Shown piece by piece: positions 8,978 through 40,557 of a DNA stretch of 64,000 bases; position 1 is the first letter of the stretch; each line of letters starts with the position of its first letter. The notes below the pieces were generated by a model. It worked only from the letters and a program-made list of their open reading frames with translations, made no database searches and was not told where the DNA came from. The translations under genes were made by a program, and so were the position numbers. Source of the stretch: Candidatus Altimarinota bacterium (GTDB lineage: Bacteria; Patescibacteriota; Gracilibacteria; UBA1369); NCBI GenBank assembly GCA_041752875.1, contig JBGSVP010000001.1, forward strand, positions 62,872 through 126,871, read 5' to 3'.

Positions 8978-9544
8978 TCAGGCAGTAAGGTTAAGCAGTC
9001 CGAAAGTGCCGTCTTCACGCCTGTAGACCACGTTAAAATTATTGTTATCCGAATTCACGAAAGCGTAAAACCCGTGACCAAGCAGTTCAAGCTGTTCTAT
9101 CGCCTCTTCTTCGTGCATCAGAGACGCTTTAAATGTCTTTCTCTTTACGATAGGCGAAGTCTCCACTCCGACGTCCTGGGTTGAAGAGATTTCCTCCAGT
9201 GTAGAGGCCGGGATCCATTTTCCACCCATATCACGGCGGTTTCTTTTCGATTTGTATCTTTCCAACTGTTTTTTCAGCTTATCGACAGCCAAATCCATAC
9301 CTTCCTCCACAGTAGTCGCATAAACTTCCGCGCGGACCACCGCATGAGGCACGAACATGGTTACTTCCACGGTTATATTCTTATTGGAAGTCTTATTGGA
9401 ATTTACCTCTACATCTACCCTGACCTGCGTAGACTCATCATCAACCCGTTCCCCAAGAGTCCCCAGATTTTCAATCTTTCCGTTTATATAATCCTTCTGA
9501 AAATCGTTTAGGCTCAAATTCTTTTCCACAATCGTGACTTGCAT
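8978..9544 (-). CDS. hpf: ribosome hibernation promoting factor (long HPF/RaiA type)
   Basis: 188 aa. The N-terminal sigma-54-modulation/S30EA fold pattern is present (MQVTIVEKNLSL...DYINGKIENL...VRVDVEV...VTMFVPHAVVRAEV). The C-terminal dimerisation extension is also present (LMHEEEAIEQLELLGHGFYAFVN). Confidence 0.9.
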   Translation of the reverse strand: MQVTIVEKNLSLNDFQKDYINGKIENLGTLGERVDDESTQVRVDVEVNSNKTSNKNITVEVTMFVPHAVVRAEVYATTVEEGMDLAVDKLKKQLERYKSKRNRRDMGGKWIPASTLEEISSTQDVGVETSPIVKRKTFKASLMHEEEAIEQLELLGHGFYAFVNSDNNNFNVVYRREDGTFGLLNLTA

Positions 9545-9576
9545 ATGAAAAACTTAAAGAAATTAAATGCGAAAGC

Positions 9577-9604
9577 ATTATAACAGTTTGGATTTTATAT
9601 TCAA
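9577..9604 (-). promoter_or_regulatory. predicted sigma-70 promoter of hpf and the downstream minus-strand gene string
   Basis: Minus strand reads TTGAAT, a 16-nt spacer, then TGtTATAAT (extended -10). The -10 ends about 33 nt upstream of the hpf ATG at 9544. Confidence 0.5.
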
Positions 9605-9649
9605 CTTGGTAGAGATGGCTTATATAAAAGATAGCCTATTGCACCTCGT

Positions 9650-9678
9650 TTGACGATTACCGCGATTTTTGCTATAAT
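9650..9678 (+). promoter_or_regulatory. predicted consensus sigma-70 promoter of the giant-protein module
   Basis: TTGACG (9650-9655), 17-nt spacer, TGcTATAAT (TG at 9670-9671, TATAAT at 9673-9678). This is 31 nt upstream of the ATG at 9710. Confidence 0.6.
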
Positions 9679-9709
9679 TTATCGATAAAAAATATAACCT
9701 AAAAAGACA

Positions 9710-10177
9710 ATGCCATTGGAAACGAAAAACAAACCGGAAGAAAACGCCAAAGCGATACCTTTGCCGAAAGACACAGAAATAGAGTTCAGCGGCGATTTGG
9801 ATAAAGATTTGGATAAAATCACAAGACTTTCATTCAAAAAAGAAGCCTATGAAGAGATACACGAAGATTTCATAAATAGCCTCAAAAAATCGATTGGCAT
9901 AATGGCCGGAGACAAAACTCCAAAAGAAATATGGGAATACCTGCAAAAAGCGGGATGCCAAAAAATTAAATTGGAAAAAGGCGCAATGAGCTACTACGAC
10001 GAAAAAGGGAAAGAGATGAAAACAAATTACAGGGAAAACAGAGAAGAAGTAAAAAGAGACAACACAAAAGCCCGCATGGACCTGATAGCGCAATTCAATT
10101 TCCCGAAGCCGAACTTTCCGAGGGCCCAGGCGGGAGATGAGGCATCAAGTAAGGAAACCGTAAACAAAGAGGCCTAA
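9710..10177 (+). CDS. hypothetical 155-aa protein, stand-alone copy of the N-terminal module of the downstream giant protein
   Basis: Long ORF directly downstream of the consensus promoter. It shares the motif IWEYLQKAGCQKIKLEKGAMSYY with the next two genes. Lys/Glu-rich, with no signal peptide. Confidence 0.7.
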   Translation: MPLETKNKPEENAKAIPLPKDTEIEFSGDLDKDLDKITRLSFKKEAYEEIHEDFINSLKKSIGIMAGDKTPKEIWEYLQKAGCQKIKLEKGAMSYYDEKGKEMKTNYRENREEVKRDNTKARMDLIAQFNFPKPNFPRAQAGDEASSKETVNKEA

Positions 10178-10207
10178 CAACAAACAAAAAATTTAATTTA
10201 AAACGAT

Positions 10208-10690
10208 ATGGCGACAAAAAACAAAAAAACGACAATGTCCGATAGGGCCCAAACAAGAGTTAAAAAAGAAAACCGATGGCAGATATTTGAAGCGGAGGCA
10301 AAGTTTATTAGCGGGGATATGGCCAAATGCCTAAAGACCCTTGCGGACGCAATATTCCCTAACAACGAATATAACAGCCAGATATATCAGGAAGCCATAG
10401 CCGGTTCACTAATAGAGACCATAAGTCCGGATTTGGGAATCTACGATTTCTGGAAAGCTTTAAAAAAAGACGATTGCGAAACGGTTAAGATTGAAAACGG
10501 TCATATGAATTTCTATACAAAAAAATCCACAAAAATCGACATAACAAAATATACCCAGCCGATAATCTTCCCTGCGACATCTTCTTTGGATGAACAAAGA
10601 AAAATGGAACGAACAAAAAAGATAGCGGAGGCAAAAAAACAATTGGAAGAACTGATAAAAGAAATCAAAAACAAAAAAATAACAAAATAA
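10208..10690 (+). CDS. hypothetical 160-aa protein, second stand-alone paralogue of the giant-protein N-terminal module
   Basis: Shares AKF...L, QIYQEAI and FWKALKKDDCETVKIENGHMNFY with residues about 60-140 of the 2,022-aa protein. Only a 10-nt gap separates it from the next gene. Confidence 0.7.
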   Translation: MATKNKKTTMSDRAQTRVKKENRWQIFEAEAKFISGDMAKCLKTLADAIFPNNEYNSQIYQEAIAGSLIETISPDLGIYDFWKALKKDDCETVKIENGHMNFYTKKSTKIDITKYTQPIIFPATSSLDEQRKMERTKKIAEAKKQLEELIKEIKNKKITK

Positions 10691-10700
10691 CAAAAAAAAT

Positions 10701-13700
10701 ATGTACTCTCCCAAAAGCAATATAAAAAAAGAATGGGACAACATTACCGTCCAAGGCACTATCTTCCACAATGGAAGAATCATCATGAATACACCTGAAA
10801 AACAACCCTGTGTCGAAAGCCAAGAGACCGGATCGGAAAAAGGGAAAGTAATGGATTTGATGACATTAAAAAGCAGCGCCAAATTCGAAAAAGACGCGGA
10901 AAAGACACTTGATAAACTATCCAAAGGCAATGAGACCAATAAAAATCAAATCAGGGAAGCCATTCAGGAAAATCTGTATAACCAGGACTATAAGGAATAC
11001 CAATCAAAAAACAGAAAAGAAACAAGCAGCCTGAACGAACTATTTGAAGATTTTTGGAAAGAGCTGGAAAAAAACGGATGCAATACGGTAAAAATCGAAG
11101 AAGGAAGGATCAAATTTCTGAAAGACAATGTAGATGTAGCTCCAAAGCAGAACCGCGTCGCAATCAAAGTGGATTTAAGCCGCTTCATTACGGATGCGCC
11201 TGAAAGCACCATTTACAACAGCGAAACCGGAGTCATCTCCTTTAAAGACAGCAAAGAAGAGAAAGAAAAAAGGATAGACGACATAATCGTCAATCCCGTA
11301 GAAGGAACCCGAATAAAGATATCGAAAAACACAAAAGACGCAGCTGCCGGCAAATTCAGGATTGCGATGTTTACCGAAGGAGAAGATGGCTTTACCGCGT
11401 ATTATTGCGACAAAGAAGGAAAACCGATCATCAACGAAAGAGTAAAGATATATAAGGATAATGTCGTAAAACTGGAATCACAACCGACAAAGAAAGAAAA
11501 ACAGACCGGCTCGGATATATATATAAACGGAGAGCCGTACACTCGCATAGGAAGCGTAAAGAAGAGTCAAAACTTCACTTACGAACAGATAGCGAAAGAA
11601 ATCCTTTCGAATCCAAACCAATCGCTAATCTCTTCCGGTGTAGCAAAAATGGTCAAAGATAGCGCAATAACCCTAGACGAATACGCCGAACTTTTGAGCG
11701 AAGCCCATATAGCCGCTGGAAACGGCGATTTGATGCTGATAGTCATGCCGCATGAAAACAGAGCCAGGAAGACGGCAACAAAAAAAGCCGCAGACACTAA
11801 GAAAGAAACCGAACAGACAGAAGCGATTGACCGAGGACAAAGACAAGATGCCGAAAAAGCACTTACCGCAAGATATGACCGCACATTAGGTATGATACGA
11901 GCTCAAAAAAGAGGTGAATCCTTCGAGGATGAAGGAGTCGAAAGAAAAATAGACAGAACAATGGAAAAACTTATCGCCAACAAAGATGCCTGGGACAAGG
12001 CATGGAAAGAAGACGAAATTCAGGGACTCGAAGAAATCAGGAACATCGTCAAGATGTACCCCAAACTGTTCGGCAAAATAAGCCAGAACCCAGATTTGTT
12101 GAGAGACAAAATCTACGACGCTGTGAAAGAAGGAAAAAAAGACAACATATATCCCCAGGATATAATCAAAAAATTGGATATAAAACTACCTAATGGAAAA
12201 GACTACGGAGAACTGCTTGCCCAATCGACAATCTACCCGAATGGCAATGCGGAACAGGAAAAACTGCTTAAAGAAGCAACAGACATAACCATACCTATCG
12301 AACAACTGACCGACGCCATCGGTGCATTAAGTTACGGGACAAAACCCCGCACGGAAAAAGTCAGGACAGCAGAAACGGGCAAAGAACACGCACTGAAAGT
12401 TAAAGTCGATATGGCCAGATTCGGAAACGAATTCACAAGCATATCCAAACTGGAATCGCTTTCCGGGGCAGAGGAAGTCCCGGGAATCCCGATAGATCAC
12501 CTGGAAACGAAAGGCAACGACTATATACCAAGAATGAGACAGATGGCTACTGCTCTTGGAATTCCGGCAAGCCAATTCAAGATACCTCAAGATGAAGGCA
12601 AGAATCTTATAAAAAACGATGCAGTAAGAGCAAATATCATATATAAAGGACAAAGATTGAGCATCAAATTGGATAGAAGCTCGGGATGGGCACGAACCTA
12701 CATCGCCGCCGGCTTCGACAATAAGAACTTCGGAGACGATTATATATCATCCGACTGGAGCAATCCCACATCGGAAAATTTCACACGAAAATTCGACGAC
12801 AAGCTTAAAGGACTGAAATCAGAACTTAGCAACATGCGCGCTACCCCGGACGAAAGAGGAATCATCCCTAACGCAGGAGCTTTAGATGAGTTCAACGCAA
12901 ACTATCTGGAATCGAAAAATTACGACAAGATGTATGCCCTTTCACGCGACCAATTAACAGAACTTGTCTTTACTTTATATACCTTCGAACAGCTGGTAAA
13001 AGAAAATTGCATTGCCCAAGTGGAAGGTGAACCGAACCGGTTCGTCCTAATAAGGTTACCGGCAAAAATGAAGCAGAAACCTCTTCCTGAAGAAATCAAA
13101 CAGGCTGCCATCGCGGTCAAATTAAGAGAGTCCGCCGGAAAAGAGAAAGTCAAAAAAGCCCAGGAAACACTAAATCCAAATCTGTCATATCTAAGAAGAC
13201 TAAAGAAACTGTTCCCCGGAATCGCCCGTTTCGACGACAAAGGGAACAAAATAAACATGGCTGAAATGAGAGCAAAAGCAGACAAAGGAGGACAAAAAAG
13301 CGCCGAGGCGGACGATATCTTCTTCAAAAACTACGATGGAAACGCCGCGATGGTCATCTTCCTTGACCAGGTACTCGACAAAAAAGCCGACGGAAACGAA
13401 TCGATAGATGTAGCCAAAGCAAATAGCTTACTTACCGAATATTACAGAAAAGGAGCAGAAAAGATAAGAAACATGCCTGAACCTGTCACTGAAAGATACA
13501 AAGCTACACAGAAAGAGCTCAAAAATGACTTCAGACAAGATTTAAGAAATAGACCTATCGACATCAACAAAGACCTTGCCGAATGGGACATACACATCAT
13601 ACAAGTCGGATTCGTTGAAGATGAAGCCGCAAAAGAAGTAAAACAAGACGAAAAGCTCAACGAAATGATAGAAAAGATGGCAAAAGAAGTAGGCAACAAT

Positions 13701-16700
13701 CCTGAACTTTTACGCAAGCTGCAAGCGATGTACAGCAGGATCACCGGACCGAAACTGGAAAAAGCGCTAAAACAGTTACCGATAGGTATATTATTAAGTT
13801 ATCAGCGCACAGCCGAAAAGAACAATATTGTAGGACTACATACTCCGATTATGCTTCCATTTCCAGATGAAAACATTAATCTGGTATTAATCCCCGGCAT
13901 AAGCACCGATGACCGCGCAAGTATCGCCATCGGAATTTCCGACAGAGCTAAGGCTACCGACAGGATAACACTAGTGGGTGGATTTAGCATGGGAGTGAGT
14001 GGAGGAAAAGGAGGACTGGGAACTCCCCTCGCCCTAAGCGGAGGAATCGAAACACGCATCTACACCGCAGACAAAGACGGTAACTACAACCACTTCCTGG
14101 GCATCCGGGCGGGCGCGGGAGTCGACCTTTCAAAGGGTACATTGGGCATAAACTTCGGTCCATACCACAAATGGGACGTGGATGCTCAGAAAAAATACGA
14201 CAACGGACTGAACGAAAAGATGCAGGAAAAAGGAATCAAAGAGTTCAAAGACCGGCTCGAAAAAATATATGAGAAAGGAGTAAACAAGAAGGAAATGGAC
14301 CAGCTGGCAAACGACATCAAAGCTTCCCCTATCGCAACTGAACTCAAACTGGAACCCAATGCCACAACCGAACAGACAATAGCCTCATTCAAAAATTATG
14401 TAGCCTTGTTTATAGGCAAATTCACAAAAGATTTCTCCCTTGGATTAATCAGCGGAGGAGAAATAGGATTATCAATAAGCGAAGGACTATTGATAGTAAG
14501 CGGGGCCGTAACCGGAAACGTCCCCGTAGTAATCGGAACAACAAGCAAATGGGCGATAGGACTATTAGCCTCGCTAAAAATCAATATCGATTCCCGAATC
14601 ACGATGGGCACGACACAAACTACTTCCGACGAAAAGATGAGCGCGCACGCAGAATCTAAAATTCTGGACTACTTCAACGAAGAGTTCAATAAAGACTTCG
14701 ACAGAAGCACTGCAGAAAAAGGATTGGAAATATCCGGGAAAAACAAGAATAAAGAATCAGGCAAAATCAGGACAACAGAATCGGTCAACGGTAAACTTAC
14801 GGAACTGGATGCCGGAACCAACATAGAAAAATACAACGAAGGACTTAAAGAAATAGGATTAAAACTCACTGTGACTCCATCAAAACTGGTGGAAATCGAA
14901 TTTCTGAAATCGATGACGGACGGCAACATCAAAGTCATCATAGGCCCAGAAGTGGCGGTGTTACAAGACGGGCGTCTATTCATGAAAGACCCGAACAGTC
15001 TGCGCAATCTGTATTTCAGCAGACAAAACAAGCCTTATCCGTTCGAAGACAGACACGGAGCATACAAAGACTCGGTAATATTACTTTCCACCAACAAATT
15101 CCTTACCGAAAACGGACAATTCCGATTACCACAAGATATAGTTCTAATGAAAAACAAAGGAGAATCTGAATACTCTATAATTAAAGAAGGGAAAAAAGAA
15201 AAACCGCAAGCCGTAATCGAAAGCAAAATCCCGAAAATGACAACGGCGGGAATCAGAAACGCGAATGACGCGTCTGACAGAGCTCTTTATGGAGGAGAAG
15301 AAAGCAAAGAAGAAGTCCGTGAAAACATCAAAGAACTGGCGGCAAAACTTTACCGTTTCAAAAACAGCAGAGGTGAAACATTCCTTTCCATAACCAACCA
15401 GGATGGGAAAGATGTAAAAGACCGCCCCTCATATACAAAAGAAGACCTGTTCAAATTCTTCGATGAATTTACACAGAAAGAAGGAATCAATAACCTTAAC
15501 GGTACAGAAAAAGAACAGCTGATGGTCGAATGCTCCACGCTCCGCTACACCGAACTTAAAGGAATGGGCCGCGGCCCCGAAGCACTCAAGAAAAGACTGG
15601 AATGGGCACGCGATTTCGTACTCAAACCGTTCTTCGAAAAAAGAATCGAAGACCTGGGCAAACAAGGAATAAAGATAGCCAATTCAGCAGACAGACTTGC
15701 TCAAAAGGCCATCGACGACATTTCAGGTATCAGCATCAACCAGAATCCGTCCAAACTCGAACTCGGAACATCGACGGCAGTGGCCATCGGCCGATACGGA
15801 AAAGGCAAAGAAGGCGGATTGAACCAACTTCTGAACGGAGGAACGGACAATAATCCGTACGGCTACATAATAGGAAAAGACTACACCGAAGCTCTTAACA
15901 CGAAACAACCGGCAGAAGACTACGAATTGGCTCTTTTGCTAAAAGAACAAGTCGCACCTTTAGGCAGACTGGATACATCAAGAGAAATGGCTCCGAAAGA
16001 CATAGAAGCATTCATGGAAAACCCTTTCACCCGAAAAGTGGCATCCTTACACCACCTTATATTTATCCTTGGAGAAAAGAAATACAAAGGATTGACCGAT
16101 TACTACAGCAAAGGAGAGACAAAGAATAACCAGGAAGCTATCAAAGCCTTTGCCGACCTGGTTAAATGGATCAGAGCCGAAACAGACGCCGGCCACGAAA
16201 GCGCAATCCATGAAGACAAAGAAACCGGACTAAAATACCTGTTCACATTCCGCCACAAGATTCAGACCGGAGTATTCAACAAATGCGGAAACTTCGCTAT
16301 CACAAACAACGACGAGATAGGAGTAAAGCTTATTCAGCCGGAAGAAGGCGGCCCGTCGATCTACAGCGCAAAGGGCGAAGCCATGACATCGGTAACGACG
16401 AAACTCTACAAAGAATTCCTCGCTTTATGGGGAGGAGTATCGGCGAGCATCGCTATACCGGAAAAGGTAAAAGTAAAAGAAACCCCACCGGAAAAAAAGG
16501 GTGAAGGAGAACCACCGAAGGAGGAAACACCACCGCCTAAAACAGATGAACCGAAACTGGGATTACCAGGGAGTGGAGATAGGATTAAAGCAGCAGAACC
16601 GAAACTGGGATTACCGGGGAGTGGAGATAGGATTAAAGCAGCAGAACCAACTCCCGGACAAGGAGGAGAAGTAGTAGTCGGCCCGGGAAGCGAAAAACCC

Positions 16701-16769
16701 GATTCCGGATCATCGACCCCCGCACCTGCTGAACCACCAAAAGATGGAGAACAAGCTGCCGATCAATGA
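10701..16769 (+). CDS. giant (2,022 aa) highly charged protein of unknown family, with central Gly-rich hydrophobic segments and a Pro-rich repeat tail
   Basis: Uninterrupted 6-kb ORF. No signal peptide and no repeat family I recognise (no YD, RTX or HEAT-like periodicity seen). The start is ambiguous: in-frame ATGs at 10785 and 10851 are also possible. Confidence 0.85.
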   Translation: MYSPKSNIKKEWDNITVQGTIFHNGRIIMNTPEKQPCVESQETGSEKGKVMDLMTLKSSAKFEKDAEKTLDKLSKGNETNKNQIREAIQENLYNQDYKEYQSKNRKETSSLNELFEDFWKELEKNGCNTVKIEEGRIKFLKDNVDVAPKQNRVAIKVDLSRFITDAPESTIYNSETGVISFKDSKEEKEKRIDDIIVNPVEGTRIKISKNTKDAAAGKFRIAMFTEGEDGFTAYYCDKEGKPIINERVKIYKDNVVKLESQPTKKEKQTGSDIYINGEPYTRIGSVKKSQNFTYEQIAKEILSNPNQSLISSGVAKMVKDSAITLDEYAELLSEAHIAAGNGDLMLIVMPHENRARKTATKKAADTKKETEQTEAIDRGQRQDAEKALTARYDRTLGMIRAQKRGESFEDEGVERKIDRTMEKLIANKDAWDKAWKEDEIQGLEEIRNIVKMYPKLFGKISQNPDLLRDKIYDAVKEGKKDNIYPQDIIKKLDIKLPNGKDYGELLAQSTIYPNGNAEQEKLLKEATDITIPIEQLTDAIGALSYGTKPRTEKVRTAETGKEHALKVKVDMARFGNEFTSISKLESLSGAEEVPGIPIDHLETKGNDYIPRMRQMATALGIPASQFKIPQDEGKNLIKNDAVRANIIYKGQRLSIKLDRSSGWARTYIAAGFDNKNFGDDYISSDWSNPTSENFTRKFDDKLKGLKSELSNMRATPDERGIIPNAGALDEFNANYLESKNYDKMYALSRDQLTELVFTLYTFEQLVKENCIAQVEGEPNRFVLIRLPAKMKQKPLPEEIKQAAIAVKLRESAGKEKVKKAQETLNPNLSYLRRLKKLFPGIARFDDKGNKINMAEMRAKADKGGQKSAEADDIFFKNYDGNAAMVIFLDQVLDKKADGNESIDVAKANSLLTEYYRKGAEKIRNMPEPVTERYKATQKELKNDFRQDLRNRPIDINKDLAEWDIHIIQVGFVEDEAAKEVKQDEKLNEMIEKMAKEVGNNPELLRKLQAMYSRITGPKLEKALKQLPIGILLSYQRTAEKNNIVGLHTPIMLPFPDENINLVLIPGISTDDRASIAIGISDRAKATDRITLVGGFSMGVSGGKGGLGTPLALSGGIETRIYTADKDGNYNHFLGIRAGAGVDLSKGTLGINFGPYHKWDVDAQKKYDNGLNEKMQEKGIKEFKDRLEKIYEKGVNKKEMDQLANDIKASPIATELKLEPNATTEQTIASFKNYVALFIGKFTKDFSLGLISGGEIGLSISEGLLIVSGAVTGNVPVVIGTTSKWAIGLLASLKINIDSRITMGTTQTTSDEKMSAHAESKILDYFNEEFNKDFDRSTAEKGLEISGKNKNKESGKIRTTESVNGKLTELDAGTNIEKYNEGLKEIGLKLTVTPSKLVEIEFLKSMTDGNIKVIIGPEVAVLQDGRLFMKDPNSLRNLYFSRQNKPYPFEDRHGAYKDSVILLSTNKFLTENGQFRLPQDIVLMKNKGESEYSIIKEGKKEKPQAVIESKIPKMTTAGIRNANDASDRALYGGEESKEEVRENIKELAAKLYRFKNSRGETFLSITNQDGKDVKDRPSYTKEDLFKFFDEFTQKEGINNLNGTEKEQLMVECSTLRYTELKGMGRGPEALKKRLEWARDFVLKPFFEKRIEDLGKQGIKIANSADRLAQKAIDDISGISINQNPSKLELGTSTAVAIGRYGKGKEGGLNQLLNGGTDNNPYGYIIGKDYTEALNTKQPAEDYELALLLKEQVAPLGRLDTSREMAPKDIEAFMENPFTRKVASLHHLIFILGEKKYKGLTDYYSKGETKNNQEAIKAFADLVKWIRAETDAGHESAIHEDKETGLKYLFTFRHKIQTGVFNKCGNFAITNNDEIGVKLIQPEEGGPSIYSAKGEAMTSVTTKLYKEFLALWGGVSASIAIPEKVKVKETPPEKKGEGEPPKEETPPPKTDEPKLGLPGSGDRIKAAEPKLGLPGSGDRIKAAEPTPGQGGEVVVGPGSEKPDSGSSTPAPAEPPKDGEQAADQ
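16548..16643 (+). repeat. perfectly in-frame 48-nt tandem duplication (2 units plus a 5-nt partial third) encoding EPKLGLPGSGDRIKAA
   Basis: Units at 16548-16595 and 16596-16643 differ at a single synonymous position (cca versus ccg). The next bases (gaacc) begin a third unit. Confidence 0.9.
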
Positions 16770-16804
16770 TTTTGAAATCATAATTAATTTTTGAATTAAT
16801 CAAA

Positions 16805-17023
16805 ATGCATAAACATAAAATTAAAACCCATAAAAAATATAATCTATATCTAATAATAGCGATAATCATCGCAAGTTTCTTGTTTGCACTATGGATAATA
16901 AAGTTCGATACCAATAAACAGACAAATAACATTCAAGCTGGAAGCATAAACCCAAATCCAGGAAATCCGACGAGCACCCCCGCTGTTGAAATACCTAAAC
17001 AAGGAGAACAAATACCTGACTAA
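16805..17023 (+). CDS. small (72 aa) single-pass membrane protein
   Basis: Basic N-terminus MHKHKIKTHKK, one hydrophobic helix LYLIIAIIIASFLFALWII, then a polar Pro/Asn-rich tail. Positioned between the two giant genes on the same strand. Confidence 0.5.
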   Translation: MHKHKIKTHKKYNLYLIIAIIIASFLFALWIIKFDTNKQTNNIQAGSINPNPGNPTSTPAVEIPKQGEQIPD

Positions 17024-17099
17024 ACAACATCAGTTAAAAACTCGTATATCCCATTATTGCCGACTATAAAAATCAATTGAAATATAATAAAAAACAAAA

Positions 17100-20000
17100 A
17101 TGAAAATACAAAAACATAAAAATCTAGTACTAAAAATACTATTTACGGCAATATCGCTAACGTTTTTCGTAAACACAGCAAATGCGGCCAAGCTAAATAT
17201 CACACGTCAACTATGTGATCTGGCTGTTTTTCCATGGAATATTACAGTAAGTGCCAATTACGATGAAGCGCTAAGACCATGGATTAACAAAGTCAGTGAA
17301 AGCGTATGTAAAAATCATTTAACTATACCTACTTCCTCTCCATACACGGCGCAACCATACACTCCTAATTCAAACAACTATTCAAGCATAACCGACACTT
17401 CAGATATTCCTTTAATAACAGGTGCAGAAGAAAAACACGGGCCAAAAGCAGAACATACACATGATTACTTCAATGACTCACTACAGGATGATTTTTACTA
17501 CGAATCTATGGTAGCAAAATTTGCCATAGATTTCGCCCCTGATACTAAAGTGAATATCAATAAAATCGAATGCGTAACTACATATCCTAAAAACCTGGAA
17601 AACAAATACACAATTGATCAAATAAATTCAATACTTAGTCCTTTACTTGACTGCGATGGAGAAATACAAAATGAAGATTTCTACGGTGGCATACGAGTAG
17701 AAAAAAACGAAAAAGGAGTAATATGGACATTCGGAACCCAAAAAGGATACAAATATCAACCGACAATATTGGGAAAGAACCCTGATTTAGATTCTGTAAT
17801 AAGAGAAAACATCGAAAAAAACAATCCTAAAAATAAAAACATTTCACCTTCCGATCCTAACTATCAAAAATCTAATTTCAACTCCTCGGACGAAAACTTC
17901 AGAAAATTCGGACAGAAAGTACAGCTTACCACATTCGACAACAACAATCATCCAACCAACGCTTGGAGCGCAACAACTACATCAAGAATACTGATCCGTA
18001 ATTTTGCTATAGGGAAAACCTACGCCGCTCAAAACAATAACAAATTTGGGAGCCTCAATTCCCAAGGCAAATGCGATTTTAACACAGGATGGTGCGCCCT
18101 ATTACCTTCACCTTCTGAATTTAAAGAAATAGAAAAAATAGAAGGAAAATATAATTATTTCTGGTTCCCGATTGGCACAACCTCAACCGTCTGGAAAAAA
18201 ACTCCACCCCCTCCCACTCCCCCCACCTGCTCCTCCCTCTCCCTCAACCTCACCCAAAATGGAAAAACGGTAAATACAAAGGCCGTACAACCAAATATCC
18301 CAGTCAATATATCCGTCTCCCCAAGTTTCATTCCGGCCGAAAAGTCGGTCGCACTCAACTACAAATGGTCTGCCGGAAGCGGGACCTTTGACAACGGCAA
18401 TCCTTCCAACGGGAATTACCAGACAAGCTCCTCGACAGCAACTTATGACGGAGGCTCTGACGTAGAGGTGAGAGTACAGGCATATTACGCAGATACCAAT
18501 AAAATAGCCGAACCTTGCAATGCCAAATTCAACATTCCAAAACAAACCACATCCCTAAAGTGTAATGACCTCAAAATATTGGACCAAAACAATGCGCCAA
18601 TGCCGAACATCATAGATCTGAATTCGCCTAATCCTCCCACCCGGCTCAACATGCACCTTAATGTAGATAAAGACGATAAATTAACCAATTTGAGCTATCA
18701 GTATACGTCCGAACCTTCCACAGGCACATTCACCGCGGGCGGTACGCCATCAACTTCGATTACAGCAACAAGTCCGGACCAGAATGTCATCTACACTATC
18801 CCCGCCTCACCGACTTCAGACATTACACTCATCGTAAAAGCAGTCGGAGGAACACCTTCCGGCTCAAATCTGACAGATTGCGAAGAAAAGATAATCATCA
18901 AACACAAATCCACGCCTCCGCCTTACTGTACATCGTTCTCCGTCACAGCCGAGCCCAGTCCCATATATGAAGGATCAGCACTGACAATTCTGAAAGCAAG
19001 CGGTACTTATTCTGACGGAAAACCTGTTGACCGAATAAACTGGTCAACAACAAACGGAACATTAAGCATAGGAGGAATTTGCGCCACACAACCACCCATT
19101 TTTTCTCTATCCAATCTGCCCCAGGGATGTTCCGTAAACTTCAGCAACGGCACCGTTGGAACAATTATTTCAGCCTCTGCAAACCCACCGGCGACAAATT
19201 GCGAAAAATCCGTCACCGTTGTTAAAAAACCAAACAACAATCCCCCCAAATGTACAAGACTGGAACTCACCCCAAATAGAATCAACCTCAACGAACAAAC
19301 AAACTTCACGGCAAAAGCCCATTTCATCGATTCCAATGGGAATTCTGCTAATTACGATATCACTTTAGGCTGGACCGGAAGTCCGGGAACGTTAGAGAAA
19401 ACTTCAGAAACCAAGTCAAGCGCAGAACCTTTTCTCAACAAATTTTATTCCACATCACCTGCATCAGCTAAAGTAACAGCCAAAGTCCTAAGTGTCTCCT
19501 CTGTTAATAACCCGGACTTGAGCGCATGCTACCAAGAGGTAAAGGAAACCTATGGCGGTGGCGGCGGGGGCAACAGATGCAGTAACTTCGAACTAACCAG
19601 AAAAGGTAACCAGGTCTGCATAAGCGTCAACAACTATACGGGTGAATTTACATGGATTGTAAACAACGGACCACCTTATAAGACTTCATATAGCGATAAG
19701 TGCCAAATCATCGCCACCAATTTACCTGTCCGAGCCTATGCAACCGGCTCACCCAGTGATTGTAACGACTCACTCACCCCGCCCCCTCCCCCCTCCTCCG
19801 ACAAACCTACCCTCGAAAAATACGTCAAAGGAAACCGCGGCGGATTCAACTTTAACAAACCGTCAATAGTAACGGTCCAATCCAATTACCAGGATGGCTC
19901 TAACATCTTAACCTACCAGCTCAAATTCACACCCAAAGGGATTACCTCCGCCACCATCACCGACCCGATAGCAGGAGGCATAGATGGAGAAGTATTACCT

Positions 20001-21338
20001 GCAGGCACAAAATACACAAAAGGCGGAAAGATATCATATAACGGCAATATGTCACTGCAACCGGATTTATCTATCTGCCCTTCAACCAAATACGAAACCT
20101 ATACCGAAGGAGGGAAAATAAAAACAAGATCAATCACCATGCCTGATAAAGAAAAGGTAAACTGCTACGAAGGCGACATCGGCAGTTCTCTAAAACTGTT
20201 CAAAGTATCAACACCAATCAAAATCGAATACTCGGCAAAACTTGATAGTTTAATTAAAGACAGCGTGTGCGAAGAAGGCATCGTCTGCGAAGAAAAATAC
20301 ATTAATAAAGCCACCGCCAAAGACACCAGAGTCTATGAAAACAATGAAGCAAATTTACCGGAAAAAACATATGGCACCATCACCAGCAACGAAGCCATCG
20401 TCCAGGTCTTCTGCCAATACATCCTGACCCGCGCCGCCGGCGACATCTTCCTGGAAAGCGACCTGAACTCCGGAATAGATATCAATCAATGTTCCAAATA
20501 TAAGAGCAGTACCGGAATAATCGTTGTTCCGGGAAATCCTCCTCCCCCGAATACTCCAAGCACCGGACTTCCCGCCAACAAGATATTCAGTATAAGCCAC
20601 GAAATCTGTTCCATGGGACAAGCAGGAACACTAAATTCCGATTTGCAAGAATTCTACGGCCAATCCGTTTCCAATAAACTTTCCAGCCAAATCTGCGAAG
20701 TAAAACTGCGCCCGGGCGAAGCCTGGCAGAAAACTTCCATTGCTAACAACATCGAAGAAAACAAGACCAGAATAGCAAGATGGGAAACCCTCAACGCCGA
20801 GGATTTATCATCACTGCTATTAAGGTATCCTGACAATAAGGTATACCGAATTACCGATGGCGACCTTACCGTAAACAGCGAAGTAACAATCCCTTCCGGA
20901 GCAAGAACATTCATCATCGAAAACCACGACCTGATAATCGGACAAGACATCAAATACGACAACACCACTTCCATAAACTCCATCCAGGAAACACCTTCAG
21001 TCGCATTCATAGTCCTGAACGGAAACATATATATAGATAAGAACGTAAAAGAACTGGCAGGAGTTTACTTCGTTCAAAAAGGTGACAGGACTGACTCCGG
21101 AAAACTATACTCCGGAACCGGCCCGACTAACAAAGATGTCACTTCGACCAGTCTCCTAACCATCTACGGCTCCGTTTACGGTGACATCCAGCCTCTCTTC
21201 ATGAAGAGGACTTTCGCCGGCGATCCGTCCGAAAACAATGCCGCCATCACCATCCGATTCGACCAGCGCATCATACTCAACACACCCCCGGGACTGCGGG
21301 AAATGCTTAATCTTACGGAAAGCGACGTAGCCCGATAA
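17100..21338 (+). CDS. secreted / cell-surface 1,412-aa protein with five Cys-bracketed modules and a DUF11-like C-terminal region
   Basis: Sec-type signal peptide MKIQKHKNLVLKILFTAISLTFFVNTANA. Five modules each begin and end with a Cys and are separated by Pro- or Gly-rich linkers. A TLEKYVKGN...ILTYQLKF...ATITDPIAGG segment resembles the DUF11 / conserved-repeat-domain pattern. Confidence 0.85.
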   Translation: MKIQKHKNLVLKILFTAISLTFFVNTANAAKLNITRQLCDLAVFPWNITVSANYDEALRPWINKVSESVCKNHLTIPTSSPYTAQPYTPNSNNYSSITDTSDIPLITGAEEKHGPKAEHTHDYFNDSLQDDFYYESMVAKFAIDFAPDTKVNINKIECVTTYPKNLENKYTIDQINSILSPLLDCDGEIQNEDFYGGIRVEKNEKGVIWTFGTQKGYKYQPTILGKNPDLDSVIRENIEKNNPKNKNISPSDPNYQKSNFNSSDENFRKFGQKVQLTTFDNNNHPTNAWSATTTSRILIRNFAIGKTYAAQNNNKFGSLNSQGKCDFNTGWCALLPSPSEFKEIEKIEGKYNYFWFPIGTTSTVWKKTPPPPTPPTCSSLSLNLTQNGKTVNTKAVQPNIPVNISVSPSFIPAEKSVALNYKWSAGSGTFDNGNPSNGNYQTSSSTATYDGGSDVEVRVQAYYADTNKIAEPCNAKFNIPKQTTSLKCNDLKILDQNNAPMPNIIDLNSPNPPTRLNMHLNVDKDDKLTNLSYQYTSEPSTGTFTAGGTPSTSITATSPDQNVIYTIPASPTSDITLIVKAVGGTPSGSNLTDCEEKIIIKHKSTPPPYCTSFSVTAEPSPIYEGSALTILKASGTYSDGKPVDRINWSTTNGTLSIGGICATQPPIFSLSNLPQGCSVNFSNGTVGTIISASANPPATNCEKSVTVVKKPNNNPPKCTRLELTPNRINLNEQTNFTAKAHFIDSNGNSANYDITLGWTGSPGTLEKTSETKSSAEPFLNKFYSTSPASAKVTAKVLSVSSVNNPDLSACYQEVKETYGGGGGGNRCSNFELTRKGNQVCISVNNYTGEFTWIVNNGPPYKTSYSDKCQIIATNLPVRAYATGSPSDCNDSLTPPPPPSSDKPTLEKYVKGNRGGFNFNKPSIVTVQSNYQDGSNILTYQLKFTPKGITSATITDPIAGGIDGEVLPAGTKYTKGGKISYNGNMSLQPDLSICPSTKYETYTEGGKIKTRSITMPDKEKVNCYEGDIGSSLKLFKVSTPIKIEYSAKLDSLIKDSVCEEGIVCEEKYINKATAKDTRVYENNEANLPEKTYGTITSNEAIVQVFCQYILTRAAGDIFLESDLNSGIDINQCSKYKSSTGIIVVPGNPPPPNTPSTGLPANKIFSISHEICSMGQAGTLNSDLQEFYGQSVSNKLSSQICEVKLRPGEAWQKTSIANNIEENKTRIARWETLNAEDLSSLLLRYPDNKVYRITDGDLTVNSEVTIPSGARTFIIENHDLIIGQDIKYDNTTSINSIQETPSVAFIVLNGNIYIDKNVKELAGVYFVQKGDRTDSGKLYSGTGPTNKDVTSTSLLTIYGSVYGDIQPLFMKRTFAGDPSENNAAITIRFDQRIILNTPPGLREMLNLTESDVAR

Positions 21339-21364
21339 CCTGATGTAGAAAATTCAGACAACAC

Positions 21365-21407
21365 AAAAGCCCTCTGCGACAACACTTACACCGGAGGGCT
21401 TTTTATT
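21365..21407 (+). terminator. intrinsic terminator closing the giant-protein module
   Basis: Stem aaaagccctc (21365-21374) pairs with gagggctttt (21394-21403), followed by a T-rich run. It lies 27 nt after the stop codon at 21336-21338. Confidence 0.6.
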
Positions 21408-21493
21408 AGCAAACAAATACAGGGTCCGCGCAATTCAAATCCTTAACCGGAAATGCTAATCTTCCCCCGCATTACTTTTCGACAGAAAAACCG

Positions 21494-22480
21494 ATGTCCC
21501 AACCCAACCTATTCCTGTTCACCGGCGAAGACACATACACCGCGCAACAACGGCTGAAACTCTGGCGCAAAGAATTCGAAAAAAAATACGGAGAATTCAA
21601 TGTCCAGTTTTTCCAGGTCAACAAAAAGGATGACCTTACCCCAGGCGAATTCAGAAACGCCATCAACACACTACCCTTCCTTAGCGAAAAGAAACTCATA
21701 ATCATAAGCGACTATCTGGCTACAGGGAGCACGGAAGAACAGCAGGAGATAGCGGAACAACTCGACACACTGCCCGAACACTGCCTTCTTGTTTTCATAG
21801 AATCGAAAAAGCCGGATGCCCGCACGACCCTTTATAAAAGACTAACAAAAAATGGCCAGATAAAAGGATTCCCACATCTTGAACCCGGAGAGTTAAGCAC
21901 ATGGATAAGACAGGAGATGCAAAAGAAAAACGCATCCATAGGTCACCGCGAAGCCGATCTGCTCGCGGAAATGGTCGGCCCGGATCTCTGGCAGATGGCA
22001 CAGGAACTGGAAAAACTCACTATCTACTCCAACGGTTCACCAATAACCGCAAAAACCATCGAAAAGATAGTTGATCCCAATATAACCGCGTCTATCTTCA
22101 AACTTACCGACGCCATCGCCGCGAAAAACACGAAACAGGCGATAGCAATACTAAAAGCAATGGTTCGCGGCGGCGAAGACCTTTTCCAGATTTTCTACAT
22201 GATTGCCCGGCAATTTCGCATACTCCTTCAGGTAAAATCCTGCATGGATAAAAAAATGACCTCCCAGAAGATAATAGTGCAACTGAAAGAAAAACCTTTT
22301 ACCGTCACGAACAGCATGAATCAGTGCAAAAACTTCGATCTGAACAAACTAAAGACCGCTTACCGCAAAGTCCTAAATATAGATATTTCCATTAAAAGCG
22401 GAGGAATAAAGACAACAACCGATGACCAAAGCGAATTCCGCCTCGCGCTGGAAAAACTGATTATCGAACTTGCCCACTAG
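21494..22480 (+). CDS. holA: DNA polymerase III delta subunit (HolA)
   Basis: 328 aa. The N-terminus LFLFTGEDTYTAQQRL and the overall pattern (LEKLTIY...IT...IEKIV..., FKLTDAIAAKNTKQAI) are typical of HolA. Confidence 0.8.
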   Translation: MSQPNLFLFTGEDTYTAQQRLKLWRKEFEKKYGEFNVQFFQVNKKDDLTPGEFRNAINTLPFLSEKKLIIISDYLATGSTEEQQEIAEQLDTLPEHCLLVFIESKKPDARTTLYKRLTKNGQIKGFPHLEPGELSTWIRQEMQKKNASIGHREADLLAEMVGPDLWQMAQELEKLTIYSNGSPITAKTIEKIVDPNITASIFKLTDAIAAKNTKQAIAILKAMVRGGEDLFQIFYMIARQFRILLQVKSCMDKKMTSQKIIVQLKEKPFTVTNSMNQCKNFDLNKLKTAYRKVLNIDISIKSGGIKTTTDDQSEFRLALEKLIIELAH

Positions 22481-39132: not shown

Positions 39133-40557
39133 CTAAATGCCTATTTCTTTCTTTAAAGCATTAATATCACGACTTACACGAGTATCGTCCTTCAGCTCTT
39201 TCTCTATCTTACCACAAGAATGCATCACCGTAGTATGATTCCTTCCGCTAAAACTCTCGCCGATTGTGGCATAAGACTGATTCAAAATCTCTCTTATCAG
39301 ATACATACAGACCTGCCGTGGTAACATCAGTTCCTTGCGGCGGTCGTCACTAATCATATCGCTCTTGGTAATCTTATAGTATTGGGCAACCAAATCTATG
39401 ACATCTTCATTTGTTCTGACAATGAGTTTCCTTGAATCATCCTCCTGCTTATATCCTTTTATATCTATATTCCGATTCAGCCTGCGTATGGTGTCGGATA
39501 CGGATTTTATCGTGGGAGTCGTTTTAGTAAGCTCCCATTCTGCAATAGCCTTTACAAGGACACCAACCATTTCACGTACACTATTGTTTACATTGAAGGC
39601 TATAAACTCAAGAACCTCACGGTCTATCATAACTTCATGTTCGCTACACTTGGTATTCAGAATAGCCAGCCGCGTCTCAAAATCAGGAAGCAGAAGTTCA
39701 ACTATCATTCCCATACCAAAACGACTGGTAAGCCTTTCTTCAAGACCGTCCAAATCATTAGGCGGACGATCGGAACTCAATATTATCTGTTTTTTGTTAT
39801 CATAAAGTTCATTGAAAGTATGAAAAAACTCCTGTTGTGAAGAAGACTTGTTTCCGAAAAACTGGATATCGTCGATAATCAGACAATCCAAATTTCTGTA
39901 ACGATCCTTGAAAGATTTGGTATGTCGACTGCCTATGGCTTCCACTATTTCATTTATAAAACGTTCCGAAGTCATATATACGACCGTCTTATCGCGAAAA
40001 TTCTTAAGGATCTGATTCCCTGTAGCCTGTAAAAGATGGGTTTTCCCCAATCCCACCCCACCAAACAGGAACAATGGGTTATATATATTTCCGGGACGTG
40101 CCGCCACAGCCATACAAGCGGCATGAGCAAGTTTATTTTCGTTACCAGGGATAAAAGTATCAAGAGTGTATTGCGTATTAAACATCTTGCTTCTTATCCC
40201 ATCCGGCATCAATACTTCCTGCCTGTTCGGCACTTTTCTGACACTCTTCTTCCCTTCCATCTCACTAATCATCCTGGAATCGAGTTTATCTACGTTTTCC
40301 TCATCCAACAAAGAACTCTTTACCTCATATCTTATTTCCTTAACATCAGGAAGAGCCTCACTGATTAATTCATAAAGACGCTTTTCGAACCTGTCTTTAA
40401 TGAACTGCAAACCCATTATAGTGGGTATGCCGACAGTTAGTATTCCATCTTTATTATCCAGAATAGCCGAATCCTTAAAAAAAGATAATATATGCGACTT
40501 CCCAACAGTTTGCGAAAGACGAGCAACCACACCTTCCCAAACAGCTTTCTTATCCAT
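39133..40557 (-). CDS. dnaA: chromosomal replication initiator protein DnaA
   Basis: Walker A GGVGLGKTHLLQA, Walker B LIIDDIQF, sensor motifs, and the C-terminal DNA-binding helix GRNHTTVMHSCGKI. Confidence 0.95.
   Translation of the reverse strand: MDKKAVWEGVVARLSQTVGKSHILSFFKDSAILDNKDGILTVGIPTIMGLQFIKDRFEKRLYELISEALPDVKEIRYEVKSSLLDEENVDKLDSRMISEMEGKKSVRKVPNRQEVLMPDGIRSKMFNTQYTLDTFIPGNENKLAHAACMAVAARPGNIYNPLFLFGGVGLGKTHLLQATGNQILKNFRDKTVVYMTSERFINEIVEAIGSRHTKSFKDRYRNLDCLIIDDIQFFGNKSSSQQEFFHTFNELYDNKKQIILSSDRPPNDLDGLEERLTSRFGMGMIVELLLPDFETRLAILNTKCSEHEVMIDREVLEFIAFNVNNSVREMVGVLVKAIAEWELTKTTPTIKSVSDTIRRLNRNIDIKGYKQEDDSRKLIVRTNEDVIDLVAQYYKITKSDMISDDRRKELMLPRQVCMYLIREILNQSYATIGESFSGRNHTTVMHSCGKIEKELKDDTRVSRDINALKKEIGI

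What the first reader, a model, noticed from the sequence alone, without database searches (positions are those of the whole stretch)
9920..11120. Three consecutive genes share one N-terminal module (consensus FW-x2-L-x-K-x-[GD]-C-x2-[VI]-K-[IL]-E-x-G-x-[MI]-x-[FY])
Aligned by eye, the three copies are as follows. P1 (9920-9997): PKEIWEYLQKAGCQKIKLEKGAMSYY. P2 (10439-10516): IYDFWKALKKDDCETVKIENGHMNFY. Giant protein (11043-11120): FEDFWKELEKNGCNTVKIEEGRIKFL. P2 and the giant also match further upstream (AKF..A.K.L..L, and QIYQEAI versus QIREAI), and all three match downstream (D[LI]...[FY]....P). The two small proteins are therefore free-standing copies of roughly the first 130 aa of the giant. 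If the giant starts at its third ATG (10851), the module sits at the same distance from all three N-termini. Shared N-terminal prefixes on otherwise different proteins are how trafficking or adaptor domains appear in polymorphic effector loci. Alternatively the small copies could be chaperones, assembly caps or competitive regulators of a docking site.
Basis: seen in the sequence. Interest (0 to 1): 0.7.

Follow-up and report, generated by a model that had tools for sequence, protein, structure and literature searches.

The report
Small paralogues of a giant protein's N-terminus
Two small genes in an uncultured Peribacteria (candidate phyla radiation) bacterium are ancient stand-alone copies of the first domain of the 2,022-residue protein encoded next to them, and this pairing recurs in relatives, which suggests the small proteins work together with the giant's N-terminus in an uncharacterised cell-envelope operon.

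Summary
P1 (9710-10177), P2 (10208-10690) and the giant (10701-16769) share a domain of about 110 residues. Smith-Waterman scores are 8-10 sd above shuffles, with 0 of 2000 shuffles reaching them.

The domain defines a rare, unannotated family. An exhaustive HMM search of 1.84 billion representatives gave 32 hits at E<=1e-3. After removing two repeat artefacts, every hit is either a 147-212-aa protein or the N-terminus of a giant of about 2,000 aa. There is no Pfam, NCBIfam, PHROG, PADLOC, PDB or BFVD match.

In every informative relative locus the small gene lies directly upstream of a giant, in a conserved operon: small, giant, tiny membrane protein, then a secreted Cys-rich protein of about 1,400 aa. 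Giants without an upstream small gene never carry the module (0 of 13, against 8 of 11 with one). Small and giant modules form separate clades, so the duplication is old and has been retained.

The giant starts at its first ATG, not at 10851. A conserved leader motif lies upstream of 10851.

The "polymorphic effector trafficking domain" reading is not supported, because only one cargo exists. The "partner, chaperone or assembly factor" reading fits best but remains an inference.

In passing, the giant's centre looks like an outer-membrane-type beta-barrel, which is unexpected in a CPR bacterium.

The parts
9650..9678 (+). Best sigma-70-like promoter of the region (TTGACG-17-TATAAT with TG extension). 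It sits 32 nt upstream of the P1 ATG and is the likely operon promoter.
   Evidence: 11 of 12 matches, the best site in 9400-21600. No comparable site and no + strand terminator lies between P1, P2 and the giant.
9710..10177 (+). P1, 155 aa: a divergent stand-alone module protein (module about aa 19-139). It lacks the leader and has a 'NFPKPNFP' tail resembling the P-x-L-P tail of type-b small proteins. It is an extra copy, seen elsewhere only in L053.
   Evidence: (E=6e-38 to the A2 profile, which was built with P1 itself); phmmer of P1 against independent small proteins gives E down to 3e-6.
10208..10690 (+). P2, 160 aa: a typical 'type-a' small module protein (module about aa 24-125, followed by a long C-terminal helix at aa 126-159).
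   Evidence: 34-54% identity to P0006-P0009. AF2 pLDDT 89.2; 14 metagenomic orthologous loci.
10701..16769 (+). Giant protein, 2022 aa, with no Sec signal peptide. It belongs to a fast-evolving Peribacteria giant family found at a conserved chromosomal position.
   Evidence: All homologues are annotated 'hypothetical protein'.
10758..10796 (+). N-terminal leader motif of the giant (aa 20-32, TIFHNGRIIMNTP). It is the counterpart of the family motif h-F-x(n)-(K/N)R-h-V-[FYW]-x(3-5)-P.
   Evidence: The motif is present in giants with and without the module and in many type-b small proteins.
10866..11225 (+). The shared module inside the giant (aa 56-175).
   Evidence: profile positions 3-109 align to aa 56-170, E=3.9e-38.; this is the most conserved block of the giant's N-terminal half.
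13791..14618 (+). Gly-rich amphipathic beta-strand region of the giant (aa 1031-1306), predicted to be an outer-membrane-protein-like beta-barrel with a helical insertion.
   Evidence: AF2, moderate confidence. (Foldseek: OccAB3 E=2.3e-3; KdgM TMt 0.62; NanC 0.53). (strand amphipathicity). (PF13505 OMP_b-brl in 4 of 16 homologous segments, best E=2.5e-4).
16548..16648 (+). 48-nt tandem duplication (2.1 copies, 98% matches) encoding EPKLGLPGSGDRIKAA twice, in the Pro-rich C-terminal tail of the giant.
16805..17023 (+). 72-aa single-pass membrane protein. Its position is conserved in relatives but its sequence is not.
   Evidence: hydrophobic segment aa 10-37. (62-68-aa genes at the same position)..
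17100..21338 (+). 1412-aa secreted protein with a signal-peptide-like N-terminus and 28 Cys. It is the conserved last gene of the operon.
   Evidence: homologues lie downstream of the giant in 10 loci, with E down to 1e-97.

Best explanation
The module is the N-terminal domain of a lineage-specific giant envelope protein of Peribacteria. It is an alpha/beta fold of about 110 aa (strand, three helices, beta-hairpin, strand) with no detectable relatives.

P2, and the extra divergent copy P1, are ancient stand-alone paralogues of that domain. P2 carries an added long C-terminal helix. They are transcribed from the same promoter as the giant, and P2's stop codon lies 10 nt before the giant's start.

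The most likely mechanism is direct pairing of the small protein with the giant's homologous N-terminal domain, forming a paralogous heteromer. The small protein would then act as a dedicated partner (adaptor, chaperone or assembly factor) for folding, targeting or assembly of the giant. The giant would work together with the tiny membrane protein and the secreted Cys-rich protein encoded downstream.

Shown:
- the homology;
- the family-wide gene order;
- co-occurrence of the small gene with a module-bearing giant;
- the old age and retention of the duplication;
- that the fold and family are not previously described.

Inferred:
- physical pairing;
- the partner or chaperone role;
- the envelope location of the giant.
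For: - The homology is significant pairwise and at profile level without window sequences (probability 98.5%, E=3.2e-15).
- An exhaustive search finds the module only on small proteins and on giant N-termini.
- In every informative locus the small gene directly precedes a giant: L002-L004, L044-L048, L050, L051, L053, L054, L056, L057, L059, L061, L062.
- The spacer is 9 nt in L044, L047 and L048, and 10 nt here.
- Co-occurrence: the module is detectable in 8 of 11 giants with an upstream small gene and in 0 of 13 without one (Fisher p=2e-4). Two of the three apparent misses, L054 and L059, still show the W..L..C..I...F.FY core in hmmalign.
- In the NJ tree most giant modules (12 of 16) fall in one group apart from the small-protein clades, so the copies have been kept separately through speciation rather than homogenised.
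- One strong promoter-like site lies upstream of P1, with none between the genes.
- AF2 of P2 with 30 sequences gives pLDDT 89.2, so it is a folded domain and not a linker or low-complexity match.
Against: - No interaction was tested. AlphaFold-Multimer was not available, and the structure tool returns neither PAE nor coordinates.
- Co-occurrence and co-divergence are equally expected if the two proteins merely use the same third partner.
- In type-a loci the small-to-giant spacer varies from 20 to 108 nt, so tight translational coupling is not universal.
- P1 and P2 lack the leader motif that the giant and many type-b small proteins share, so they may not follow the giant to its destination.
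- The function and location of the giant itself are unknown.
Confidence: 0.45

Rival explanations
1. Shared targeting domain. The leader plus module is a recognition element for one export or anchoring route. The small proteins and the giant would be parallel substrates, or co-exported components, that each dock to the same machinery (for example the tiny membrane protein) without binding each other.
For: - A conserved N-terminal leader, (K/N)R-h-V-[FYW]..P, is shared by all giants, including those without a module, and by many type-b small proteins. The hhalign match begins exactly at this motif.
- The giant has no Sec signal peptide, yet it sits in an operon with a membrane protein and a secreted protein, and it has an OMP-like barrel region. 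Some non-classical targeting would therefore be needed.
Against: - P1, P2 and all P2-like small proteins lack the leader.
- Giants without the module keep the leader, so leader and module are separable and the module is not needed for whatever the leader does.
- No known secretion ATPase or translocon gene lies in the operon.
Confidence: 0.25
2. Competitive regulator or cap. The small proteins mimic the giant's N-terminal domain and compete with it for a binding site. That site could be self-association of giants or a docking site, so the small proteins would limit or terminate assembly.
For: - The same homology and co-occurrence data apply.
- Copy number of the small gene varies: one in most loci, two here and in L053. 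This would suit a dosage-type regulator.
Against: - Being first in the operon and closely followed by the giant gene suggests constitutive co-production rather than regulated antagonism.
- Small and giant modules have diverged to only ~25-45% identity, with distinct clade-specific features. That is more typical of complementary partners than of mimics.
- Nothing shows that giants self-associate through the module.
Confidence: 0.15
3. Polymorphic effector or toxin locus. The module is a trafficking prefix on exchangeable cargo, and the small genes are immunity proteins, adaptors or orphan 5' cassettes.
For: - It is superficially similar to LXG/Lap, Rhs or CdiA loci: small genes next to a very large one, and a shared N-terminal prefix.
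- The giant family evolves fast, with 17-35% identity between syntenic orthologues.
Against: - Only one cargo family exists.
- The C-terminal ~1000 aa of the giant is its most widely conserved part, not a variable tip.
- No toxin, immunity, LXG, WXG, Rhs, PAAR or defence hits in Pfam, NCBIfam or PADLOC.
- The locus has a fixed housekeeping chromosomal position between HPF/Wzy/Mur-ligase and HolA across the class. It is not in viral contigs.
Confidence: 0.04
4. Non-functional remnants: P1 and/or P2 are decaying partial duplications of the giant's 5' end with no role.
For: P1 is a singleton with no close orthologue. It sits on a long branch and has lost the conserved 'IDIxxF' strand.
Against: - P2 has orthologues at 34-54% identity in at least 14 metagenomic loci, all intact and all upstream of a giant.
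- Small proteins have their own conserved C-terminal helix and P-x-L-P tail that the giants lack.
- P1 keeps the near-invariant F, L, W, C and G residues and is the first ORF after the promoter.
Confidence: 0.06

Closest known systems
LXG polymorphic toxins with their small Lap/DUF3130-type partner proteins (type VII secretion, Firmicutes)
   Same: One or two small genes lie immediately upstream of a very large protein. In that system the small products act on the large protein's N-terminal domain to make it export-competent. As a working model this is the closest analogue.
   Different: - No LXG or WXG100 Pfam hit.
- The module is an alpha/beta domain, not a helical hairpin.
- Here the partners are true paralogues of the N-terminal domain.
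- There is one conserved cargo rather than variable toxin tips.
- No EssC-type ATPase is in the operon.
Paralogous heterodimer pairs that arose by duplication and are encoded side by side (e.g. EsxA/EsxB, PE/PPE)
   Same: Adjacent, co-transcribed paralogues retained over long evolutionary time. In those systems the paralogues bind each other.
   Different: Here one paralogue is a domain of a 2,000-aa protein. There is no sequence or fold relationship to those families, and binding was not tested.
Outer-membrane beta-barrel proteins (Pfam OMP_b-brl PF13505; KdgM/NanC 12-stranded porins; OprD/Occ channels)
   Same: The giant's central Gly-rich region is predicted as long antiparallel amphipathic strands. 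The best structural matches are these barrels. 4 of 16 homologous segments hit PF13505 weakly.
   Different: - The barrel-like region is embedded in the middle of a 2,022-aa protein without a signal peptide.
- The organism belongs to a group regarded as lacking an outer membrane (my background knowledge; the Peribacter genome paper PMC4736985 never uses the term 'outer membrane').
- Scores are below curated thresholds, and the window's own segment gave no PF13505 hit.
Large extracellular, Cys-rich proteins of 'Ca. Peribacter riflensis' (Anantharaman et al. 2016, PMC4736985)
   Same: Same class of organism. The 1412-aa downstream gene (signal peptide, 28 Cys) fits that description, and large variable surface proteins are a known hallmark of the group.
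   Different: In the passages retrieved, that paper does not describe the giant without a signal peptide, the small paralogues or the shared module.

Membership tests
Any curated protein family for the module (Pfam-A, NCBIfam, PHROGs, PADLOC) | Profile HMM match at or above the curated threshold | tested here: not met
   - P1, P2 and the giant give only sub-threshold noise (best 14-18 bits against cut-offs of 21 bits or more).
- precomputed Pfam is '-' for all family members.
Any solved or predicted known fold for the module | Foldseek match with E<=1e-3 or TM>0.5 to a PDB or BFVD entry | tested here: not met
   A confident model (pLDDT 89.2) has a best PDB E of 0.8 with TM <=0.26 and a best BFVD E of 0.18. 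AlphaFold DB was not available.
T7SS LXG toxin / WXG100-like partner system | LXG (PF04740) or WXG100 helical-hairpin domain at the N-terminus of the large protein and in the small partners | tested here: not met
   There are no such Pfam hits. The predicted fold is mixed alpha/beta with a beta-hairpin.
T7SS LXG toxin / WXG100-like partner system | EssC/FtsK-type secretion ATPase in the genome | not testable with these tools
   There is none in the operon or in the annotated genes of the 64-kb window.
Polymorphic toxin / effector systems (Rhs, CdiA, LXG, MafB and similar) | A conserved N-terminal trafficking region joined to variable C-terminal toxin domains, with a cognate immunity gene downstream | tested here: not met
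   - The module is found on one giant family only.
- The C-terminal ~1000 aa is the conserved core.
- The downstream genes are a tiny TM protein and a conserved 1,400-aa secreted protein.
- There are no toxin or immunity hits.
Outer-membrane beta-barrel proteins (OMP_b-brl, porins) | Antiparallel amphipathic strands closing a barrel, recognisable by profile or by structure | tested here: inconclusive
   - Foldseek top hits are all OM barrels, but E is 2e-3 to 0.2 and the model pLDDT in the region is about 57-73.
- PF13505 hits 4 of 16 segments, best E=2.5e-4, and not the window's own segment.
- The strands are amphipathic.
- A profile search against PDB sequences found no porin.
Outer-membrane beta-barrel proteins (OMP_b-brl, porins) | N-terminal Sec signal peptide for export to the periplasm | tested here: not met
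   There is no hydrophobic N-terminal segment in the giant or its homologues. The only window with KD>=1.5 is aa 1262-1281.
Autotransporters (type V secretion) | Signal peptide, passenger domain and a terminal 12-stranded barrel (PF03797 or the inverse-autotransporter barrel) | tested here: not met
   There is no Pfam hit. The barrel-like region is central, flanked by ~1000 aa and ~700 aa. There is no signal peptide.
Type IV pilin-like proteins (shared N-terminal prefix on different proteins) | Class III signal peptide followed by a ~20-aa hydrophobic helix | tested here: not met
   P1 and P2 have no hydrophobic segment and the module is highly charged.

The most novel reading that the evidence does not exclude
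The operon encodes a previously unrecognised envelope machine of Peribacteria. Its core would be a ~2,000-aa protein carrying an outer-membrane-type beta-barrel, in a lineage thought to have no outer membrane. The barrel might insert into an unrecognised outer layer or into the membrane of a host cell. The giant would be delivered without a Sec signal by a new N-terminal leader-plus-module system, in which the small paralogues serve as dedicated co-factors.
Probability: 0.12. Interest if true: 0.85.

Novelty: new variant of a known kind. Interest (0 to 1): 0.55.

Why it matters
Candidate phyla radiation bacteria are thought to live attached to other cells, and their large surface proteins are prime candidates for that interaction. 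Almost none of these proteins have a known architecture or assembly route.

This work defines:
- a new domain family with no Pfam entry and no fold match;
- a conserved four-gene operon at a fixed chromosomal position across Peribacteria;
- a testable rule, that a small paralogue is present when, and only when, the giant carries the module.

The rule points to a dedicated partner for a giant protein. If the predicted OMP-like barrel in the giant is real, it raises the question of what membrane a beta-barrel inserts into in a supposedly single-membrane bacterium.

The practical gain is modest but concrete. About 30 'hypothetical protein' clusters can now be grouped and named, and the start codon of the giant can be fixed.

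Tried and rejected
- **Word-indexed homologue searches.** Searches with the 3-copy alignment, the whole giant and the 30-sequence alignment returned almost only self hits. The family was found only by the exhaustive HMM search and by synteny.
- **Exact-sequence contig look-up of P2.** Not on record.
- **The search for related loci with the broad alignment A3.** Repeated with the P2-like subfamily A5.
- **Third-ATG start for the giant.** Rejected.
- **Two apparent extra cargos, P0021 (3177 aa) and P0026 (435 aa).** Rejected as repeat-driven partial matches, with per-domain E>=0.04. P0030 (321 aa) is a giant N-terminal fragment.
- **Upstream ORFs in L002, L004, L054, L059 and L062 as candidate P1 orthologues.** Rejected: no similarity and junk-like sequence. 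Only L053:2445-3038 is a genuine second small copy.
- **Structure prediction of the giant core with locus-derived sequences.** Solved by registering the giants through exact cluster look-ups.
- **A fused small-linker-giant construct as a surrogate for multimer prediction.** Considered and dropped, because the tool returns neither PAE nor coordinates, so an interface could not be judged.
- **Profile searches of whole giants against PDB sequences and Pfam.** Nothing found.
- **Phage origin.** No relative in viral contigs and no PHROG hit.
- **RNA elements.** No Rfam family in the window and no tRNA.
- **Tat, YSIRK, pilin or lipobox readings of the leader motif.** Rejected from the sequence: no hydrophobic h-region follows the motif.
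Full report
**1. What is in the window**

The region holds five consecutive + strand genes:
- P1: 9710-10177, 155 aa
- P2: 10208-10690, 160 aa
- a giant ORF: 10701-16769, 2022 aa
- a 72-aa gene: 16805-17023
- a 1412-aa gene: 17100-21338

The flanks are housekeeping genes. On one side, on the minus strand, are TruB, a Mur ligase, a Wzy_C protein and the ribosome hibernation factor. On the other side are HolA, TrmB and GatA. The rest of the window is also housekeeping and includes DnaA.

The best sigma-70-like promoter of the region (TTGACG-17-TATAAT, 11/12, TG-extended) lies at 9650-9678, just upstream of P1. No comparable site or + strand terminator separates P1, P2 and the giant.

Relatives of the Mur ligase identify the organism as a member of the Peribacteria/Peregrinibacteria (CPR/Patescibacteria). 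The best hits are 71-77% identical.

**2.

- BLASTP gives E=1.3e-7 (P1-P2), 3.5e-5 (P1-giant N-terminus) and 6e-9 (P2-giant N-terminus, 46% identity over 50 aa).
- Smith-Waterman scores of 89, 89 and 99 compare with shuffle means of 35-39 (sd 6-7). None of 2000 shuffles reached the observed value.
- The alignment extends from an 'AKF' strand through three helices to the W-x2-L-x-K-x2-C-x3-K-x-E-x-G hairpin and a following K-x-D strand.

**3. It is a family, and a rare one**

Word-indexed searches found only the window's own proteins, which are singleton clusters. An exhaustive profile search of 1.84 billion representatives returned 32 proteins at E<=1e-3.
- Two are repeat artefacts, and one is a fragment of a giant.
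- All the others are either small proteins of 147-212 aa, with the module at about residues 30-130, or giants of 2,160-2,287 aa with the module at the N-terminus.

W82 is invariant (P2 numbering). F33, L45, C90, G98 and F102 are conserved in 90% or more of sequences.

No Pfam, NCBIfam, PHROG or PADLOC family matches. All homologues carry the name 'hypothetical protein'.

With a 30-sequence alignment, AlphaFold2 predicts P2 with mean pLDDT 89.2. The model runs N-terminal helices (aa 10-26), strand, three helices, beta-hairpin, then a 34-residue C-terminal helix. Foldseek finds nothing similar in the PDB (best E=0.8) or in BFVD (best E=0.18).

Profiles built without any window sequence give hhalign probability 98.5% and E=3.2e-15 over 106 columns. 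These were 28 small proteins against 9 giant N-termini. The small-giant homology is therefore a property of the family, not an accident of this genome.

**4. Gene order and co-occurrence**

The locus is syntenic across the class. 24 of 43 relatives recovered through the Mur ligase carry an ORF of 1000 aa or more, mostly at the equivalent position.

Gene calls in three metagenomic contigs show the same operon as here. It runs small (180-185 aa), a 9-nt spacer, giant (1,961-2,150 aa), a tiny membrane protein in two of the three contigs, then a protein of at least 1,400 aa.

Fourteen further loci were recovered with the P2-like subfamily. Wherever the contig continues, they again show small followed by giant followed by a protein of about 1,400 aa.

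The 1412-aa protein is homologous across loci, with E down to 1e-97. The tiny membrane protein is conserved in position only.

A profile of the giants shows that their C-terminal ~1000 residues are shared by all syntenic giants, whereas the N-terminal halves differ.

The decisive pattern concerns the module:
- Among giants preceded by a small module protein, the module is detectable at the N-terminus in 8 of 11.
- Two of the three misses, L054 and L059, still show the W..L..C..I...F.FY core in hmmalign.
- Among 13 giants with no upstream small gene, it is never found (Fisher p=2e-4).

In a neighbour-joining tree most giant modules (12 of 16) fall in one group that excludes all small proteins. 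The small proteins form their own groups: P2-like 'type a', and 'type b' with a P-x-L-P tail. The duplication therefore predates the divergence of these lineages, and both copies have been maintained.

**5. P1**

Relatives normally have one small gene. The window has two. The only other example found is L053, where a divergent 198-aa copy with an 'LPHLPENP' tail precedes a P2-like copy.

P1 has no close orthologue. It still matches independent small proteins (phmmer E down to 3e-6). It keeps the conserved core residues and ends in 'NFPKPNFP', which resembles the type-b tail. P1 is the first ORF behind the promoter. I regard it as a lineage-specific, probably functional, extra paralogue.

**6. 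Start of the giant**

All giants, including those without the module, and many type-b small proteins carry a short N-terminal motif, roughly h-F-x(n)-(K/N)R-h-V-[FYW]-x(3-5)-P, within the first 15-45 residues. The hhalign match between the small and giant profiles begins exactly there.

In this giant the motif is TIFHNGRIIMNTP (aa 20-32), upstream of the ATG at 10851. The first ATG also reproduces the short spacer seen in relatives, and it is the NCBI call. The giant therefore starts at 10701, and the module occupies residues ~56-175.

P1, P2 and all P2-like proteins lack this leader.

**7. What the giant may be (context, lower confidence)**

The giant has no Sec-type signal peptide and no strong transmembrane helix. 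No Pfam or PDB sequence match was found for seven aligned giants.

AlphaFold2 on residues 940-1925 with 24 sequences gave a moderate model (pLDDT 65.5). The Gly-rich region, aa 1031-1306, forms a series of long antiparallel strands interrupted by a helical insertion.
- Nearly all of the higher-probability Foldseek PDB matches are outer-membrane beta-barrels: OccAB3 E=2.3e-3, OprD/Occ family, KdgM with target TM 0.62, NanC 0.53, and designed transmembrane barrels. Lower-probability hits to the Fenna-Matthews-Olson protein are interleaved with them.
- The strands are amphipathic.
- Independently, 4 of 16 homologous segments hit Pfam OMP_b-brl (PF13505, best E=2.5e-4). Single weak hits go to PagP, OMP_b-brl_2, a phage OMP barrel and the TOC159 membrane anchor.
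- A profile search against PDB sequences was uninformative.

This is a lead, not a demonstration. It is odd for a lineage considered to lack an outer membrane. The Peribacter genome paper never uses the term 'outer membrane'; it mentions a sortase, S-layer genes and large Cys-rich exported proteins (PMC4736985).

**8. Mechanism**

The data fit best with the small proteins being dedicated partners of the giant's N-terminal domain, most simply by direct paralogous pairing. They are made from the same transcript, immediately before the giant (confidence 0.45).

The main rival is that leader plus module is a shared targeting element, with small and giant proteins docking independently to the same machinery (0.25). 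The separability of leader and module, and the absence of the leader from P1 and P2, weigh against this.

The other rivals, with the evidence bearing on each:
- Competitive cap or regulator (0.15).
- Decaying duplicate (0.06; conceivable only for P1).
- Polymorphic effector locus (0.04).
  - There is a single cargo family with a conserved C-terminus.
  - The locus has a fixed housekeeping position.
  - No toxin, immunity or defence hits were found.
  - Nothing was found in viral contigs.

**9. Comparison with known systems and novelty**

Functionally, the nearest analogue is the LXG-toxin/Lap-partner arrangement of type VII secretion, or side-by-side paralogous heterodimers such as EsxA/EsxB. 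Every defining feature of those families that I could test was not met (see membership table).

The module is a new domain family. The arrangement, a stand-alone paralogue of the first domain of a giant envelope protein with strict co-occurrence, is a new variant of the general 'small dedicated partner of a large secreted protein' theme.

**10. Verdict**

Interest is moderate (0.55). The finding is a clean, previously unannotated family with a clear testable rule, in a poorly understood lineage. There is an unexpected hint of an OMP-like barrel, but no experimental or interaction evidence yet.

Noticed in passing
window 13791-14618 (giant aa 1031-1306): A Gly-rich amphipathic strand region is predicted as an outer-membrane-protein-like beta-barrel. 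Foldseek's higher-probability matches are OM porins, and there are weak PF13505 hits in 4 of 16 homologues. The protein has no signal peptide, and the phylum is thought to lack an outer membrane.
   Followed up: partly
window 10758-10796; also the first 15-45 residues of all giants in L004-L062 and of many type-b small proteins: A conserved N-terminal leader motif, h-F-x(n)-(K/N)R-h-V-[FYW]-x(3-5)-P, with no hydrophobic region after it. It is present even in giants that lack the module. It does not match Tat, YSIRK, pilin or lipoprotein signals, and its function is unknown.
   Followed up: partly
window 16548-16648: A near-perfect 48-nt tandem duplication (2.1 copies, 98% matches) encodes EPKLGLPGSGDRIKAA twice in the Pro-rich C-terminal tail of the giant. 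It looks like a recent slippage event in a fast-evolving tail.
   Followed up: no
L053:2445-3038 and L053:3074-3544 (Ga0302253_1001595): This is the only other locus found with two small module genes ahead of the giant. The upstream one is highly divergent and carries an LPHLPENP tail, paralleling P1 here. It may be an independent or shared extra duplication.
   Followed up: partly
L005:768-1280, L007:453-992, L010:179-718, L042:619-1161 (minus strand): In Peribacteria lineages whose giant lacks the module and the upstream small gene, the gene after the giant is a ~175-aa membrane-anchored protein with a beta-rich ectodomain, instead of the 45-72-aa tiny membrane protein.
   Followed up: no
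window 10001-18000: There is a strong purine excess on the coding strand of the operon (AT skew 0.32-0.44, against about 0-0.2 in most of the window). This reflects the Lys/Glu-rich composition of P1, P2 and the giant.
   Followed up: no
window 30010-31617 (-) and 43757-44578 (-): A 535-aa ORF and a 273-aa ORF have no Pfam match at E<=1e-4, in an otherwise well-annotated housekeeping region.
   Followed up: no
window 50147-51775 (+): A 542-aa protein carries a Lamin Tail Domain (PF00932, E=6e-20). This domain is often found in bacterial surface or extracellular proteins.
   Followed up: no
window 39133-40557 (-): DnaA is encoded here, so the window probably lies near the chromosomal replication origin. 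Cumulative GC skew falls monotonically across the window, with no turning point.
   Followed up: no
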